A DNA stretch of 38,401 nucleotides from Candidatus Babelota bacterium (GTDB lineage Bacteria; Babelota; Babeliae; Babelales; Vermiphilaceae). How positions within the stretch are numbered: position 1 is the first letter of the stretch; each line of letters opens with the position of its first letter. Of this stretch, positions 24,001 through 30,000 are shown piece by piece. The position numbers were made by a program. Location of the stretch: the NCBI GenBank assembly GCA_049325595.1, contig JBMOLF010000023.1, positions 1-38,401 of the forward strand. The letters are read 5' to 3'.

Positions 24001-27000
24001 TCAAATTGCAGCCAGTTGCTGCGCAATGAGTAATAAGTGAAGCTAAATCTTTTTGCTCGTGTGCAAGCGGTGCAATCTGGTTAACCACACAAACAAACTC
24101 AGATTGCAATTGATGTTGATACGCATCACCGTAACAAGCAGTAAGATCTATTGTTTCTATATTATTTCGCTCTAATAACGTGGCACTTGCTGCCTCAAGT
24201 TGATATTGTTGCCAGGTACGCGGTCCATCTGCGTGTATTGCTTGAGATAATGCATTATTTCTTTGATTTAATAACTCTTGTGAACATGTTGGCGGTAAAT
24301 ATAATGCAGAGTTTATACCGTCTTTGCCATAAAGTTGAGTAAGTTCTTGTTGGTATTTATCTTGTATTGTCGCAAAATGCTGATCAAGAATCTGTTGGGC
24401 TTGCTGAGTTTGTGTTAACTGAAAACTAGTATCTACCGGATAGGGAGTTAAATGTTCCTGAGGCACAATATGATGTGTATCAATCAAACGCGTTTTAAGT
24501 TGCTCATATAAATGAGGATATTGAGTGACAATGGTACTATCTCTACTTAATGCTAAAGCTTCATGAAGTTTTTTCCGGTCAATAAGTTGGGCAATAACTG
24601 ATAGTTTTTGATTAACCGGATGAGATTGAATAAGCGTAAGTCGCTCAACATCAATTGGCTGTGGCAATAATTCTTTAAGATCATTACCAAGACGATGCAT
24701 AAATTTATTAAAGCCATTTTTATCATACGCTAAAATTTCTTTAAAGGTTGGACAAACCTGAGCCAATCTTTCTAGTTGCTTAAAATATACTTGATCATTG
24801 GGACAAAATTTAAGCATAAAATCAGCATACAGACGCGCAATCTGTAACGGTGTCTCAGAAGCTATATGTGTTTTTAAAGAGCCGTTTTTATCAAAGAGCA
24901 AATCTAGTATCTGTTGGCGAACAGCATTAAATGGCTCATTAATATAAGCACTTGTATGAGAAAGATTTATCAGATTCATTTGTGCACTAAGAATATCAAT
25001 AGGATTATGACAATCAGCACATAGTGATTGTAAAACAGTAATAATTGCATTGGTTTGCTCGTGCATAACCGATTTAGCAAGTGGATGAGCGCATTGAAAA
25101 TGATAATCGAGCTCTTTATAGTTAAGACTTGATTTTTGATATGACGGAGAAATATCAATTGATAGATTATTAGATTTATTTTGATAAAAATGTGATTGAT
25201 TTGAAAAATGTGCAACAGGAACCAACCGTGAATCCATCGCTAATAGTGAGCTAGCTAAAATCAGGCTGAACAATATTAATTGCACAATACTATATTTTCT
25301 TAAGGCATTCTTCATTACTACTTTTTTTCGTATTTTTTAGTTTTGACTCTTTTGCGCAAAACACGATACGAAAAAAATAAGTTCTTTGCAATCTTTGAGC
25401 GATTATTATTTTTTTGTTTTTCTATTAATCAGTGCATCTATTTCTTTTAAAATAATCCCACTGCATGCTTTTACATTACATTCCATAACTGCTGCCATTT
25501 GACGAGCTTGCCATTCATTGTAGGTAAAGTTGAATGTTCCACAGTGTTCGTTAGCAATACAATTTTTTACATTAAAATGTTCTAGGTACATGTAATAGGG
25601 TTTAAATTCTGGCTTATCTTTTATTGTATTCCATAATTGTCGATCGATCACCAATGGTAGGTAAATAACGACCGGTACTGATGAATCTTTCTCATCCTTA
25701 AATATTGAGATGGCTTTTTTATCTAGACCTGTGTAATTAATTTTTGGAAACTTAAGACCATGTTTTCGTGCGTATTGCTCAACCCGCACAAATTCCTCAG
25801 GTATTGCTGCTGAAGCATCAATAAAAATAATAATATCAGCTTTACGCTCAGGTCTACGGCCACTAATAGGTGGATAAGGTAAATTAAAATCAAATCCAGC
25901 ATCACCAAGAGCTAACAATGGGGAATGCGGTGTTTTGCTCTGCGTAATCCCCTTCATAAAATTGGGTACATAGGCAGGAACAAATGGTCTTACCTCTCCC
26001 GTTGGTGATTCAAGAATACTCGAAATTGTATTACGCACCATTTCAATTTTTATCCCGTTTTCAATATATTCTTTGTATATTTTTCGTGCAGTGGCAGCAA
26101 ATGCTGAACCAAAAATACCCATTAAAAACCCAAAGCTTTGTTCTACTGCAAAATCAATCGAAGCACCATTTTCAAATTTTCTGCCAAATGCCCAGGAGGG
26201 TATGTATACTCTTTGCCATGGACTACCTATTTCGTAGGGTGTAAATTCATACCACTCTTCAGGTTGTGCTATTTCTGCGTGCACTGCCGTGTAAATGGGA
26301 AAAGGATCTTGCGCCTTTTCGATTCGTTTTACTTGCTCAGATAATACCATGCGTTGACGTTTATCAGGTGAAAACCGAAAAATAAGATTTGCTAACAAAG
26401 CGCCGTATAAATCAACCAATCCTGTAGGCTGATTAAATGATTTTTTAAGTAATAATACATTTGATATACCACTTAACTCACCCAGCGAAGGAGCTAATCC
26501 TTGTTTTAAACTTTTTACTGCCCATTCTTTATAATCACTAATATTCATGGGGGAAGATAAATACCCACCAACCGTCCAGGTGGAGCCTGATAAAGCACAA
26601 AGATACATTAAAATGTCGTACAAACCCGTAAGGTAACACCCATTAATTGCACCGAGTGCAGAAAGCATGGCTCGTGTACCCCCGCCGCTACAGACTAAAG
26701 CAATTTCAGGAACATACTCAATTTTTTTGTTAAATAACCGCTCAAGCTTGTCTGTAATTACCTTTTTTCGTCGGTCGCGATATATTTTTTCAGCAGATAT
26801 CAGTTCATTACCAATTCGTGCATGAGCAACCGTATTTCGATATGGGTTTTGCGCAATCATCGTAATCAGTTCAGTTGAAGTTCGGCGCAAATCTTCTACT
26901 TGTTTTTCAATTGATTCAATAACTGGTTTTACCGCATTCCATTGCGTTGTGTTATAACCGGTTAATCCGTTATCACTTTTTGCAATGTAAAAACTAGTCC

Positions 27001-30000
27001 CCTCCCCTATTCCTACATTTTTTGATCGCAATGCTTTAAATTCTGCTGCGCTAAATGATGGCTTTAAATCTAACTCTTTATGGGCAAAAGCCAACTCGCG
27101 ATAGTGAAATGGTTTAAAGGGAAGTAACTCCATTATTGTCGATGATTCTTGCTCCATTTTTTTTGGAAGCGTTGCCCGTGTTGCTTTATTATTAAAAAGA
27201 TAATATTGAGCTATGTAAATATCATCACCGGTTTTATTATGAATAGTGATCCGATCAGCAAATAATGTCACTGGTATGAATATTATTAATAATATACCAA
27301 CTTTCATTATTTACCCCCTTTTTGCATATCATTTATTATATAAGGAAAGATAACCCGCTTTGTCTATAAATCACAATATTTTTTGCTCTCATTCTTTTTG
27401 ACAAAATGGATTTTCTCGTGGTTTTTCATCCACTTGATTTGATTTGTTGGTGTAATTAAGAAAATAACTACCTGTTACCATCCTAGCTTGAGGCTTATTA
27501 AGAACAGTTATGTTTCCCCTACATGTAGCTTCATGGTTAATTAATTCTTCTCGAGAACCCATATTTGTAGCGCAACGATTACAAACAAAAATGTTTTGAT
27601 TTTGTGATCGCAAATAACATTCTAATGCTTTAGTACAACTTTTATATTCAGTATTACAATGAGGACATTCAAATGTTTTATTTTTCGCCCTCGGTGTTCT
27701 ATAAAAAGAGTGCCATCGACTAAAATGATTAATTGCAAGAGTCCAACTATTCAGATTTTGTTTGTTACAAATACATGTTATTACACTAATTAAAGAATCT
27801 AGTCTCGTTTTGATTGATTCCGTATCTTTTTTATCGTCAACGAAAGTGAGTTGATTATTTTTAATCTCCTGAAAAGATGGTTCTAAATTATTTTGATTAG
27901 TCGTATATTTTTTTAACTTCTTTTTCAAATTACAAGGAAAATGTCGTTTAAGATATGCTTCTGAACTAAAATCTTCCTTGCAAAAAGGACAGCGAAAAAG
28001 ACTTTTGTATATATGACTGGCAATATGATCACGCCCTATAGACACATTCGCATGCGAGCTCGCACAGTAAGGACATTTAACAGCCTCTTTGATTACATAT
28101 TTGCCGCATAGTAATATTCGGTGGAAGTCTTTAACATGTTTATTAAACTCTTCCCAACTCAATTTTTGATTGCAACAAGAAAGTTGAACTTCACTATATT
28201 TCTGGTGTAACAAATCAAGAAGGATTTCATTATTTTTTTCGTCAGAGTTGCTCGTTTTAAAAGTGCATCCTTTTATAGTAACAGCAACTATCTCATGCAT
28301 TTCAGGAATTCTTTCTAATTCAACATTGGTAGAATTGGCAATGAAAGCAAGTGACATTTTATTTTCGGTATTAGACGTTGAATAAGAATAATTTTTTTCA
28401 AAACTACTGGTAAACATGGGAGTAAATAAAAGAACTACCAGTCCACAATTTTTCATGAAGTTGCCCACTCTACTAACAAATGTTTAATGTCTTGCTTTAT
28501 TGTTCAACTAAAAGATAACAATGCAGGTGCTATGACACTTTATCAGTAGCATAAAAAAGTGCTTAAAATAAATATTTTTGATATTGGGTCGTCAATACCG
28601 TTTACTAGGATTAATTTTTAGATGAAAAAATATTTCGACACTCATTTACCGAGAGCTCTATCCAATCATTTGCTTGGGTTGCCTGAGCTGGGACTATCTG
28701 ATTTGTATTATTACTTTGTGTATTAACATCTCTTATTTCTGAGACATTATTCTTTGTTAATGTTTGTTTAATACACTTTTTAAAATGACTATTTAATAGC
28801 ATTTTATACTCATAATTTATTACTTTTTTCCCTGCATGAGAACAAAGTGGACACTCAAATAAGGCAGGATAGGAATGCCAGGCAATATGCTCACAAGCAC
28901 TGTTGGGATTTTTAAGAGATTTATTGCAATGCGAGCAGTTAATACGTTTTTGTCCATTTACAATCGCAGAGTGCTTTTCTTTTTGATGCATGCAAAATTC
29001 TTCCCAATTCATATTTTCCAAATCACAACAGGAATAGTGCTTAGAATTGATTCTTTTCTGAATAATGCCTGTAAGACTCAGCGAATTATAGGAAGAAGGT
29101 TGACTGGCATCAAACACATAATCCTCTATGGTGATTTTTGTTTTATGCGCAGAGCTACTCTTGGCGATTCTTAACGCTAATGGTGTATCTATTGCTGGTG
29201 AATCTGGACACGGAATAACCAATTCAGCAGATTCTTCTGGTTGCAATGAATCACTGTTTACTTGAGGCGTACTAATATTAGCATACAACATAGTAGTAAA
29301 TGGCGTTTGGGGAATACTTTTATTATTTTGATTATTAGTATGAATTTGATCTGCTACTTTCTCACTTGAAATTTCATGCGGCGAATTACTACTCATTTGT
29401 GGTGTGTTACTATTCCTATAGAGCATTTCAGTAAACGGGGTCATAGGAATCATCCCATTATTATTGTCAACGTCAATAACTTGATTTGCTGGTTTTTCAA
29501 TTGGCGTTGGTATTGAATTACTTTTCAAATGAGAAGTATTACTATTGGCATATAACATAGCAGTGAATGGCGTTTGTGGAGTATTCCCAGCACTATTACT
29601 GCTGTGAGAAAAATTATAAAATAAATTATTTTCAGTACGATTTGTGATTGGGCGTGTGCTAAGCAATGAATTATTTTCACGATATGCAGAAGCAACTGGT
29701 ATACTTAAAATATTAGGCTGAGAATAAATATTTGATGGATTTTGTTCAATAACGTCATTTTCAAGAAAATTACCACTCATTGTACAAACATGATCGATAA
29801 GACTTTGGCGTGACTTGTAGGCAACACCGCACAAAGAACAAGTAAAAATAGTTGAATCTCTGTGCTGCAAAAAACATTCAAGCGCTTTTGTAGAAGACCA
29901 ATAACGAATATTACAAAAATAGCACGCATATCTATCGATAACTTTGTGGCGACTACCTATGTGGTTTAATGCTACAGGCCAACAGCCTAGACTTATTCCA

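What a model noticed while it worked through the whole genome (the two positions that open the first line are those of the whole stretch)
25406..27307. Secreted cPLA2-type (PLA2_B) phospholipase: a eukaryotic lipase fold that is a hallmark of Babelales
g01329 (C23:25406-27307, -, 633 aa) has a signal peptide, a ~160-aa N-terminal region of unknown kind and a catalytic domain of the eukaryotic cytosolic phospholipase A2/lysophospholipase family (Pfam PLA2_B), 25-28% identical to mammalian cPLA2 zeta/delta/beta over ~460 residues. The catalytic set is intact: C-S-G-G-G-T-R (aa 206-212), nucleophile motif A-L-S-G-S (238-242) and the dyad Asp in G-D-A-G (468-471). The family is nearly confined to this order among bacteria: 181 of 260 other Babelales species genomes versus 221 of 189,784 bacterial genomes in all. 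It is a prime candidate for a host-membrane-attacking effector (entry, escape or lysis).
Evidence so far: pfam.tsv: PLA2_B E 5.4e-28, hmm 1-335 of 491, aa 202-503; swissprot.tsv: PLA2G4F mouse/human E 1e-34, aa 164-553; hydrophobic aa 1-22. Motifs read from the sequence. relatives.tsv: genus 1/1, family 61/79, order 181/260, domain 221/189,784, archaea 0. 'phospholipase' is absent from the main text of Deeg 2019 and Pagnier 2015 (occurrence count in the listing, call 154); cPLA2 + bacterial homologue search gave nothing relevant.
(Added by a program. Inside this text positions count along the whole contig: contig position 1 is position 1 of the stretch shown here. "Call 12" and the like, gene names such as g00115 and contig names such as C1 are that model's own, and its searches are not shown. 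The text may have been shortened before it was handed on; [...] marks where a part breaks off. The agent that wrote the report below was given it as the finding of a first reader that could run no searches.)

Follow-up and report, generated by a model that had tools for sequence, protein, structure and literature searches.

The report
Exported cPLA2-type phospholipase of Dependentiae
A protist-parasitic bacterium that cannot make its own fatty acids encodes an exported enzyme of the animal cPLA2 type, carrying an undescribed add-on domain, that most likely cuts host membrane lipids for food, for break-out, or both.

Summary
Window 25406-27307(-) is an intact 633-aa ORF. Its parts are a signal peptide (aa 1-17), a beta-sandwich (18-125) with no Pfam family and no clear solved relative, a helical linker, and a complete cPLA2-type catalytic domain (160-633). 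The predicted fold matches human cPLA2-alpha at Z 43.9, rmsd 2.4 A over 426 residues; patatin-type lipases reach Z 18 at most. GGGxR, the nucleophile Ser240 and Asp469 are identical in 120 of 120 homologues.

PLA2_B is found in 204 of 261 genomes of the phylum (order and phylum are the same set here). It is found in 0 of 14 control genomes, in no plasmid record and in no viral contig.

The effector role is untested. The genome lacks ketoacyl synthase, PlsX and PlsY but keeps FadD-like, PlsC-like and CdsA genes, so harvesting host lipids is at least as likely as membrane attack.

The gene is not wholly unnoticed. A supplementary table of the 2015 Babela paper lists a secreted "Phospholipase A2" whose best hit is metazoan. 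An earlier finding of this scan (e1-2399465) described a fused relative on other DNA.

What is new here: the phylum-wide pattern, the N-terminal domain family (321 clusters) and the link to lipid auxotrophy.

The parts
25406..27307 (-). Whole gene, 633 aa plus stop codon (25406-25408)
   Evidence: ORF list and translation. It is the only PF01735 match in the 1.29-Mb genome.
27314..27320 (-). Shine-Dalgarno-like AGGGGG run, 6 nt before the ATG
   Evidence: Read from the upstream sequence printed. The promoter scan of the region was at chance level: 11 sites found against 10.6 expected.
27257..27307 (-). Signal peptide, aa 1-17 (MK, then a hydrophobic run, then ..LFA|DR); cleavage after Ala17 is inferred
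   Evidence: A hydrophobic N-terminus (KD above 2.0 over 12 aa) occurs in 69 of 82 aligned homologues. The junction ..A|D(R)ITVHN recurs among them. pLDDT is low here, 51-59. No dedicated signal-peptide predictor was available.
26933..27256 (-). N-terminal beta-sandwich domain, aa 18-125, of no described family
   Evidence: Modelled alone it gives pLDDT 96.2 and pTM 0.87. Pfam finds 0 families at E<=10. Foldseek against PDB gives 0 hits at E<=1e-3. The best VIA match is Z 8.4 to the PepT2 extracellular domain, which is within the background range. Its profile finds 321 clusters at E<=1e-3.
26831..26932 (-). Linker, aa 126-159, mostly one long helix (120-152)
   Evidence: DSSP on the model; pLDDT 63-78. 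This is the least conserved region, column identity 0.40.
25409..26830 (-). cPLA2-type catalytic domain, aa 160-633
   Evidence: VIA alignment to 1cjy_B: Z 43.9, rmsd 2.4 A, 426 residues aligned, 28% identity, model 160-630. To 5iz5_B: Z 42.7. PlpD, CapE, VipD, patatin and ExoU score Z 11-18. Pfam PLA2_B.
26672..26692 (-). C-S-G-G-G-T-R, aa 206-212: oxyanion-hole glycines and phosphate-binding Arg212
   Evidence: Position. Aligned with SGGGFR of 1cjy. G208, G209, G210 and R212 are identical in 120 of 120 homologues.
26582..26596 (-). A-L-S-G-S, aa 238-242: nucleophile Ser240
   Evidence: Position. Aligned with GLSGS of 1cjy. S240 is identical in 120 of 120.
25895..25906 (-). G-D-A-G, aa 468-471: dyad Asp469
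   Evidence: Position. Aligned with vvDsG of 1cjy. D469 is identical in 120 of 120.
25541..25561 (-). Cys583 and Cys589, a family-specific conserved pair; a disulfide is inferred, not shown
   Evidence: C583 is kept in 117 of 120 homologues and C589 in 118 of 120. The other five Cys of the protein are not conserved. The pair is not aligned with Cys residues of cPLA2-delta.

Best explanation
The gene encodes an active serine-aspartate acyl hydrolase of the cPLA2/phospholipase-B family. The protein is exported by Sec and its signal peptide is cut after Ala17. It then works outside the bacterial cytoplasm on glycerophospholipids of the host protist. Ser240 attacks the ester bond and Asp469 activates it. 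Gly208-210 form the oxyanion hole and Arg212 holds the phosphate. The N-terminal beta-sandwich is a separate, portable module, and I infer that it docks the enzyme on a membrane or host ligand. The products are free fatty acids and lysophospholipids. These are exactly what this bacterium needs, because it cannot make fatty acids or carry out the first acylation of glycerol-3-phosphate. I therefore take host-lipid harvesting as the main payoff, with damage to host membranes as a consequence that may also help escape or lysis.

Shown: the gene is intact, the catalytic residues are present, the predicted fold is cPLA2-like, the export signal is shared by the family, the gene is spread through the phylum, and the genome has gaps in lipid synthesis.

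Inferred: enzyme activity, substrate, passage across the outer membrane, uptake of the products, and the physiological role.
For: Enzyme class: Pfam PLA2_B at 99.1 bits; 1cjy at E 1.6e-32; predicted fold Z 43.9 to cPLA2-alpha against Z 18 or less for patatin-type lipases; whole-protein model pLDDT 91; G208-210, R212, S240 and D469 identical in 120 of 120 homologues.

Export: signal-like N-terminus in 69 of 82 homologues with a recurring A|D junction; a conserved Cys583/Cys589 pair. The genome has signal peptidase I, two secretins and two T2SS/T4P ATPases. The literature names type II as the only secretion system found in Babela and TM6 genomes.

Lipid need: in G000, which is 95% complete, there is no ketoacyl synthase (0 candidates, while 14 of 14 controls ring), no PlsY and no PlsX. 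There is one PlsC-type acyltransferase, one FadD-like ligase and CdsA. PF00109 was not found in 36 of 41 relatives. Yeoh 2015 and Deeg 2019 both state that the phylum lacks lipid synthesis and must use host lipids by an unknown mechanism (passages). No patatin-family lipase was found in the genome.

Broad retention: 204 of 261 genomes and 19 of 21 families. The gene sits at the same syntenic position in the sister genome G246 while its neighbours vary. Its GC content is unremarkable for the window.
Against: No activity, localisation or expression data exist, and no RNA run holds the gene.

57 of 261 genomes have no hit, including 41 of 189 high-quality genomes. Whole families lack it (f6 0 of 7, f8 0 of 4), as do the one-contig genomes G183 and G260. 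The enzyme therefore cannot be indispensable for lipid supply.

The three relatives with a strong ketoacyl-synthase hit (G107, G167, G179) also carry PLA2_B, so the two features do not exclude each other.

A PLA2 releases lyso-PC and lyso-PE rather than lyso-PA, and I identified no importer for its products. The FadD-like and PlsC-like proteins score below NCBIfam's curated cut-offs. No DsbA-like protein was found with PF13462.

Many relatives carry 2-5 copies, and the domain has been shuffled repeatedly. That pattern is more typical of host-interaction genes than of housekeeping genes.
Confidence: 0.5

Rival explanations
1. Dedicated membrane-attack effector. The exported lipase is aimed at the phagosome or food-vacuole membrane soon after uptake, or at host membranes late in infection. 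Its selected function is escape or host lysis rather than nutrition.
For: Cultured relatives are lytic or cytopathic. Noda2021, whose orthologue P0005 is 71% identical, rounds up Vermamoeba (whole text). Babela and Chromulinavorax lyse their hosts, and Chromulinavorax leaves the food vacuole by 3 h while shedding vesicles (passages). Relatives carry 2-5 copies, often in tandem. The N-domain has been gained or lost about 10 times on a 120-tip tree, against a shuffled mean of 22. The gene lies in a variable stretch beside an EndoU-toxin-like gene and collagen-like genes. The closest functional parallels among bacteria are injected patatin-type lipases (ExoU, VipD). The N-domain has weak Foldseek rows to the membrane-binding domains of cholesterol-dependent cytolysins and to ostreolysin (E 0.04-0.1).
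Against: The Foldseek rows are far from significant. The catalytic core is invariant and the gene position is stable, which suits a conserved enzymatic job. No T3SS or T4SS delivery route is described for the phylum. Vermiphilus is described as a stable symbiont, but I could not determine whether it has the gene. Neither reading has been tested, and the two are not mutually exclusive.
Confidence: 0.3
2. Periplasmic housekeeping enzyme acting on the bacterium's own envelope. It would work as a lysophospholipase or transacylase that remodels or detoxifies imported lipids in the periplasm and would never reach the host.
For: A Sec signal alone takes a protein only as far as the periplasm, and passage across the outer membrane has not been shown. 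The cPLA2 family includes lysophospholipase and transacylase activities (established knowledge, recalled). The gene is broadly retained.
Against: A portable N-terminal binding module occurs singly, in tandem, in 6-7-repeat proteins and on a Vps62-like protein. That looks like surface or host targeting. The gene is missing from 57 of 261 genomes. A type II secretion apparatus is present.
Confidence: 0.12
3. The catalytic machinery is used on a non-phospholipid ester, such as neutral lipid, wax or a host lipid-anchored protein, or the protein is a binding protein with residual activity.
For: Substrate specificity cannot be read from the sequence. The cap region (aa 371-468) is about 80 residues shorter than the cap of cPLA2-alpha, residues 370-548 as recalled, and it aligns only in part.
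Against: Arg212, the counterpart of the phosphate-binding Arg200 as recalled, is identical in 120 of 120 homologues, as is the whole dyad. The fold matches cPLA2 over 426 residues.
Confidence: 0.06

Closest known systems
Group IV cytosolic phospholipases A2 (human cPLA2-alpha, PDB 1CJY; cPLA2-delta, 5IXC/5IZ5; Pfam PLA2_B PF01735)
   Same: They share the catalytic domain fold: Z 43.9 and 42.7, 26-28% identity over 426-431 aligned residues. The SGGGxR and GxSGS motifs and the Asp of the dyad are aligned. The nearest ESM Atlas clusters are chordate PLA2_B clusters, among them 'Phospholipase A2 group IVC', at score 0.96.
   Different: This protein is exported rather than cytosolic. Its N-terminal beta-sandwich is not a C2 domain: the structural alignment to 1cjy begins at model residue 160, and no C2 entry appears in the domain's fold searches. 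The aligned catalytic span is about 470 residues against about 577 in 1cjy (model 160-630 against chain 141-717), with a shorter cap. It has a family-specific Cys583/Cys589 pair.
Secreted fungal phospholipase B / lysophospholipase (Pfam PLA2_B; e.g. yeast Plb1-3, Cryptococcus Plb1; recalled, no structure found in PDB hits)
   Same: Same Pfam family. Like this protein they are made with a signal peptide and work outside the cell. All 10 papers that mention PF01735 concern fungi, mostly secretomes (search listing only).
   Different: I could not fetch fungal sequences, so relative similarity and phylogenetic position are untested. Fungal PLBs lack this N-domain as far as I recall (not tested).
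Bacterial patatin-like effector lipases (ExoU, VipD, PlpD) and CBASS CapE/CapV
   Same: Ser-Asp dyad lipases of the same superfold. They are used by bacteria against membranes.
   Different: They are much more distant: Z 11-18 against 44, and Foldseek E 6e-5 or weaker against 1e-33. Pfam Patatin was not matched by P0001 at E<=0.01. ExoU and VipD are injected by T3SS or T4SS and need host cofactors (recalled). This protein has a Sec signal.
Babela massiliensis Babela_gene_172 (BAB00763.1, 533 aa), annotated 'Phospholipase A2, patain superfamily' in Additional file 9 of Pagnier 2015
   Same: A Dependentiae protein with a predicted signal peptide and the same ..CFSGGGYRAM.. and ..LSGSTW.. motifs. 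Its best RefSeq hit is metazoan (Bos taurus, 172 bits, E 1e-45) (supplement row).
   Different: It is the short form without the N-terminal beta-sandwich. It is listed only in a supplementary table and not discussed: 'phospholipase' occurs 0 times in the main text.
1235-aa fused form in another Dependentiae genome (G167:C12; earlier finding e1-2399465)
   Same: It carries the same N-domain followed by PLA2_B (aa 804-1086, E 4.5e-25).
   Different: It has about 600 extra N-terminal residues, which the earlier finding reads as PLC-like. Pfam gave only PLA2_B here, so I did not confirm the PLC part.

Membership tests
cPLA2 / PLA2_B (Pfam PF01735) | Match to the family HMM above the curated cut-off | tested here: met
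   99.1 bits against a cut-off of 23, E 2.8e-28. Six-frame search of the genome: 96.2 bits.
cPLA2 / PLA2_B (Pfam PF01735) | Nucleophile Ser in G-x-S-G-S and Asp of the dyad in D-x-G, aligned with the corresponding motifs of cPLA2-alpha (S228 and D549 as recalled) | tested here: met
   S240 and D469 are aligned in the phmmer alignment to 1cjy. Both are identical in 120 of 120 homologues.
cPLA2 / PLA2_B (Pfam PF01735) | SGGGxR element: oxyanion-hole glycines and the phosphate-binding Arg (R200 of cPLA2-alpha as recalled) | tested here: met
   CSGGGTR at 206-212, aligned with SGGGFR. Glycines and Arg identical in 120 of 120.
cPLA2 / PLA2_B (Pfam PF01735) | cPLA2-type catalytic fold (alpha/beta core plus cap), distinct from plain patatin | tested here: met
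   Predicted model, not a solved structure. Z 43.9, rmsd 2.4 A, 426 residues aligned to 1cjy_B. Patatin-type chains score Z 18 or less.
cPLA2 / PLA2_B (Pfam PF01735) | Phospholipase A / lysophospholipase activity | not testable with these tools
   Needs an enzyme assay.
Group IVA/B/D/E/F cPLA2 (C2-bearing subgroup) | N-terminal Ca2+-dependent C2 membrane-binding domain | tested here: inconclusive
   An N-terminal beta-sandwich is present. Pfam gives nothing at E<=10. The 1cjy alignment starts only at residue 160. No C2 entry is listed, but a family that is not listed is not excluded.
Group IV cPLA2 (cytosolic enzymes) | Cytosolic location, no signal peptide | tested here: not met
   The protein has a hydrophobic N-terminal signal with an A|D junction, shared by 69 of 82 homologues. 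This prediction is by hydropathy and motif only.
Patatin-like phospholipases (Pfam PF01734; ExoU/VipD type) | Match to the Patatin HMM | tested here: not met
   Only PLA2_B was reported for P0001 at E<=0.01. The genome-wide PF01734 search found no match.
Type II-secreted exoprotein | Sec signal plus a T2SS in the genome, and export across the outer membrane | tested here: inconclusive
   A signal is present. Two secretins, two T2SSE ATPases and signal peptidase I are present. Actual secretion cannot be tested here.

The most novel reading that the evidence does not exclude
The exported cPLA2-type lipase is the missing first step of a host-lipid salvage route that defines the phylum. It would cut host phospholipids into free fatty acid and lysolipid. 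These would be taken up, activated by the FadD-like ligase and re-joined by the PlsC-like acyltransferase. That would let bacteria with no fatty-acid synthase and no glycerol-3-phosphate acyltransferase build their membranes. On this reading the catalytic domain was captured from an early eukaryotic host near the base of the phylum. It was then fitted with a lineage-specific beta-sandwich module, a new domain family that targets host membranes and has since spread to other exported proteins.
Probability: 0.3. Interest if true: 0.75.

Novelty: new variant of a known kind. Interest (0 to 1): 0.55.

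Why it matters
Dependentiae (Babelota) are widespread parasites of protists, and only four isolates had been reported by 2022. Two genome papers state that they cannot make lipids and must take them from the host, with no known mechanism. An exported lipase with an invariant active site, present in about four fifths of the phylum's genomes, is a concrete candidate for that step. 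It is equally a candidate for vacuole escape or host lysis. Either role can be tested in the Vermamoeba-infecting isolate, whose orthologue is 71% identical.

The finding also shows a cPLA2-type catalytic domain in a bacterial, secreted setting. It defines a new N-terminal domain family of 321 clusters that no database family names. The catalytic domain itself is ordinary for its family. Databases already tag it, and a 2015 supplement already lists one member.

Tried and rejected
1. Distribution outside the phylum. I spent my one genome-contig scan on the window's TLC translocase, hoping to get handles to other intracellular phyla. It returned 56 loci. By title they were Dependentiae, TM6, Babeliales, unclassified 'bacterium' or 'uncultured Pseudomonadota' records, and none gave a handle to another intracellular lineage. 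No other phylum could therefore be searched, and 221 of 189,784 stays unverified.

2. A 'phylum' search returned the same 261 genomes as the 'order' search.

3. Viral contigs: 37 pattern matches, none confirmed. Plasmids: no match.

4. A tree with eukaryotic cPLA2 and fungal PLB sequences. No tool gave me eukaryotic sequences, because the homologue lists fill up with Dependentiae. The direction and date of any transfer are therefore untested.

5. N-domain identity. Pfam gave nothing at E<=10. The Atlas by features gave best scores of 0.84-0.86, leads only. Foldseek against PDB gave nothing at E<=1e-3. VIA-wide gave a best Z of 8.4 (PepT2 extracellular domain), then Z 6-7 for transthyretin-like, HGSNAT, CBM and pilin sandwiches, all within the tool's stated background. 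No C2, PLAT or lipoxygenase-type entry appeared in those lists, which does not exclude them.

6. Expression: no RNA holder listed. I did not lay reads.

7. Promoters and terminators were at chance level.

8. No DsbA-like protein was found with PF13462, so the disulfide remains an inference.

9. Literature. These searches gave nothing relevant: Dependentiae + phospholipase (10 papers hold both terms, 9 listed, passages); TM6 + phospholipase + amoeba; PF01735 (10 papers, all fungal); phospholipase + Babel (noise from OpenBabel); cPLA2 + bacterial + eukaryotic-like + effector. The supplements of Deeg 2019 could not be read, so whether Chromulinavorax annotates this gene is unknown.

10. Earlier findings searched by sequence and by place gave nothing.

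11. I considered reading the N-domain plus helix as an autoinhibitory propeptide. I rejected it as the main reading because the domain also stands alone, occurs in 2-7 copies and heads a Vps62-like protein, and because short forms without it are also exported.

Full report
**1. The observation**

Window 25406-27307 on the minus strand is one open frame of 633 codons with an ATG start. An AGGGGG run lies 6 nt upstream of the start.

Pfam gives one family, PLA2_B, at 99.1 bits against a cut-off of 23 (E 2.8e-28), covering aa 202-503 and HMM positions 1-335 of 491. A sequence search of PDB finds three distinct sequences at E<=0.01: cPLA2-alpha (1cjy, E 1.6e-32) and two entries of cPLA2-delta (E 3.3e-31 and 3.6e-31). 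In those alignments GGGTR pairs with GGGFR, LSGSTW with LSGSTW, and lgDaG with vvDsG. The cPLA2-delta alignment runs on to residue 630. That these motifs hold Arg200, Ser228 and Asp549 of cPLA2-alpha is recalled, not given by a call.

The GC content of the gene (0.34-0.38) lies inside the window's range of 0.28-0.40.

**2. Anatomy**

An AlphaFold2 model built on 82 homologues has mean pLDDT 91.0 and pTM 0.79. It shows four parts.

- aa 1-17: a low-confidence hydrophobic leader.
- aa 19-119: a beta-sandwich.
- aa 120-152: a long helix of lower confidence.
- aa 160-633: an alpha/beta domain.

Aligned by VIA-align, residues 160-630 superpose on the catalytic domain of 1cjy (chain residues 141-717) at Z 43.9, rmsd 2.4 A, 426 residues and 28% identity. 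They superpose on cPLA2-delta at Z 42.7. The next best chains are patatin-type lipases (PlpD, CapE/CapV, VipD, iPLA2-beta, patatin, ExoU) at Z 11-18. Foldseek gives the same order: 1.2e-33 against 6e-5 or weaker. The caveat that only two thirds of the Pfam model align therefore does not signal a truncated domain. The whole catalytic domain is present, with a shorter cap.

In a MAFFT alignment of the 120 best homologues, G208, G209, G210, R212, S240 and D469 are identical in 120 of 120. Cys583 (117 of 120) and Cys589 (118 of 120) form a family-specific conserved pair. The other five cysteines of the protein are not conserved.

**3. Export**

Of the 82 aligned full-length homologues, 69 have a 12-residue stretch with Kyte-Doolittle mean above 2.0 within the first 40 residues. 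The leader typically ends ..(F/Y/H)A followed by D(R)ITVHN, which is the start of the conserved domain. In this protein that gives LFA|DR after Ala17.

The 24 of 120 homologues that lack the N-domain also begin with such leaders. The genome holds signal peptidase I, two secretins and two T2SS/T4P-type ATPases. Pagnier 2015 and Yeoh 2015 name type II as the secretion system found in these bacteria (passages).

I had no dedicated signal-peptide predictor. Crossing of the outer membrane is an inference.

**4. The N-terminal domain**

Residues 18-125 give no Pfam hit even at E<=10. I modelled the domain alone on 29 sequences taken from genome loci, and the model has pLDDT 96.2.

Foldseek finds nothing in PDB at E<=1e-3. 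An all-against-all VIA search gives a best Z of 8.4 (PepT2 extracellular domain, rmsd 3.1 A over 89 residues), followed by a plateau of generic sandwiches at Z 5-7. The tool's own notes place that within background. The structural match of the whole protein to 1cjy starts only at residue 160, so the domain does not superpose on the C2 domain.

A profile of the domain finds 321 clusters at E<=1e-3 and 197 at E<=1e-10 among 1.84 billion representatives. Most of the 150 listed are proteins of 600-700 aa with the domain at about residues 20-130. I scanned 56 of those 150 with Pfam, choosing those shorter than 600 or longer than 700 aa plus two of 661 aa. Of these, 27 carry PLA2_B, including forms with two or three N-domains (P0121, P0122, P0126). 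The other 29 have no Pfam family.

Those 29 include proteins built of six or seven repeats (P0209, P0248). They also include short exported proteins that end just after the domain with a basic tail (P0140, P0153, P0251). Some of the 29 are clearly fragments cut at the start of the catalytic domain.

The domain turns up in three other settings.

- P0140 is encoded directly upstream of a PLA2 gene in G189.
- In G085, a genome of family f8 that has no PLA2_B hit, the domain heads a 661-aa protein with a Vps62-like region (PF06101, E 1.4e-9).
- In G167 it lies inside a 1235-aa protein ahead of PLA2_B. This matches the fused form that an earlier finding of this scan described (e1-2399465).

On a FastTree of the catalytic domains of the 120 homologues, presence of the N-domain changes 10 times, against a mean of 22 (minimum 18) for 200 label shuffles. 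The largest clade without it has 10 tips. This set is biased towards relatives of the query, and the tree is midpoint-rooted only.

I read the domain as a portable binding module. What it binds is unknown.

**5. Distribution**

The genome is 1.29 Mb in 24 contigs, 95% complete, and has one copy of the gene. Across the order, 204 of 261 genomes (this one included) have a match over the cut-off. The count is 148 of 189 among high-quality genomes and 110 of 145 by genus. Nineteen of 21 families have at least one positive. Family f6 has 0 of 7, f8 has 0 of 4, and f3 has 7 of 16 with weak scores only (E 1e-6 to 1e-9). Many genomes hold 2-5 matches, often adjacent.

A 'phylum' search returned the same 261 genomes, so in this collection the order is the phylum. 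The 14 named control genomes gave 0 hits. A tblastn of the catalytic domain against 72,556 plasmids gave nothing. None of 37 pattern matches in viral contigs was confirmed.

Two cautions apply. Earlier findings of this scan describe a large bacterial family of membrane-embedded cPLA2/patatin-like lipases (not tested here). The Atlas also lists bacterial clusters at 0.91-0.92 behind the chordate PLA2_B clusters at 0.96.

**6. Context**

The window carries two TLC ATP/ADP translocases, Lon, cytidylate kinase, RecJ, an AAA ATPase and five collagen-repeat genes.

In G246 (same genus) the order cmk - recJ - two small ORFs - AAA ATPase - PLA2 - one ORF - collagen genes is kept. This window has three extra ORFs between the ATPase and the lipase, one of them a 975-aa protein with a C-terminal EndoU nuclease. 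It also has three different ORFs on the other side. The lipase therefore holds a stable position in a variable stretch, and I found no conserved partner gene.

The closest named relative of the protein is a 'hypothetical protein' of strain Noda2021 at 71% identity. That isolate infects Vermamoeba vermiformis and causes cell rounding (whole text). NCBIfam has no model for the protein. JGI names some relatives 'phospholipase A2' or 'cytosolic phospholipase A2'.

**7. What it most likely does**

The chemistry is that of the family. Ser240 is the nucleophile, Asp469 is its partner, the Gly208-210 backbone forms the oxyanion hole, and Arg212 holds the phosphate. These roles come from established knowledge of cPLA2-alpha and are applied here by alignment. 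I put the call of an active, exported acyl hydrolase at about 0.85.

Two roles compete for the biology.

(a) Feeding. The genome has no ketoacyl synthase (0 candidates, while all 14 controls ring), no PlsY and no PlsX. It does have one PlsC-type acyltransferase (239 aa), one protein most like long-chain-fatty-acid-CoA ligases (E 2.8e-117, below the curated cut-off) and CdsA. Phospholipid synthesis can thus begin only from a lysolipid and a free fatty acid, which are the two products of a PLA. PF00109 was not found in 36 of 41 relatives. Yeoh 2015 writes that TM6 bacteria lack fatty-acid synthesis and 'may exploit host-derived lipids', by mechanisms 'mostly unknown'. [quoted passage not shown]

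(b) Attack. Relatives lyse or round up their hosts and leave the food vacuole early. Copy number and domain make-up vary in the way host-interaction genes do.

Against (a) as an essential function, 57 of 261 genomes lack the gene. The three relatives with a strong FabF-like hit also have the gene.

The two roles do not exclude each other. I put feeding with collateral membrane damage at about 0.5, a dedicated escape or lysis effector at 0.3, a periplasmic housekeeping role at 0.12, and another substrate at 0.06.

**8. Known or new**

The catalytic domain is a plain member of PLA2_B. It is not wholly unnoticed in this phylum. Additional file 9 of Pagnier 2015 lists Babela_gene_172 (533 aa, signal peptide predicted) as 'Phospholipase A2, patain superfamily', with a Bos taurus best hit at 172 bits (supplement row). 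The main texts of Pagnier 2015, Deeg 2019 and Yeoh 2015 never use the word 'phospholipase'. My five literature searches found no paper on bacterial PLA2_B. The supplements of Deeg 2019 were not readable.

Three things are new as far as I could find.

- The phylum-wide pattern.
- The architecture: signal peptide, undescribed beta-sandwich, then the cPLA2 domain.
- The fit with the truncated lipid pathway.

I file it as a new variant of a known kind, interest 0.55.

Noticed in passing
window 21911-25315 (-): A 975-aa ORF has a C-terminal bacterial EndoU nuclease domain (PF14436, E 3.5e-14, aa 879-973). It is followed by a 156-aa ORF with no Pfam family, a layout like a polymorphic toxin with its immunity gene. 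Both are missing from the syntenic stretch of the same-genus genome G246.
   Followed up: partly
window 33223-38267 (-): Five tandem ORFs of 278-306 aa each carry a collagen triple-helix repeat (PF01391, E 1e-7 to 1e-9). G246 has three at the same place.
   Followed up: partly
window 27389-32951 (-): Three ORFs of 359, 541 and 880 aa have only weak zinc-ribbon or zinc-finger hits below the cut-off. G246 has a single 441-aa ORF with no Pfam family in their place, so this is a variable stretch next to the lipase gene.
   Followed up: no
L089:2414-4399 (-) (G085:C7): A 661-aa protein starts with the same N-terminal beta-sandwich domain but continues into a Vps62-like region (PF06101, E 1.4e-9) instead of a lipase domain. 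It sits in a family (f8) with no PLA2_B hit.
   Followed up: partly
L021:1013-1396 (+) (G189:C10); proteins P0209, P0248: The N-domain also exists as a stand-alone exported protein encoded just upstream of a PLA2 gene. It also forms proteins of about 900 aa made of 6-7 repeats of the domain with no other Pfam family.
   Followed up: partly
G000:C1:100234-100611, G000:C1:162579-163619, G000:C7:23810-24430: The genome keeps PlsC-like, FadD-like and CdsA genes, while ketoacyl synthase, PlsX and PlsY were not found. Its phospholipid pathway could therefore start only from lysolipid plus free fatty acid.
   Followed up: partly
window 8283-11300 (-): Two adjacent TLC-type ATP/ADP translocase genes, the usual mark of an energy parasite. 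The closest named relative, in strain Noda2021, is 88% identical.
   Followed up: partly
loci L033, L034, L038, L047 and others: Several public MAG records that encode close relatives (50-65% identity) of this window's TLC translocase are titled 'uncultured Pseudomonadota bacterium'. Taxon labels in record titles may mislead counts of 'non-Dependentiae' holders of a gene.
   Followed up: no
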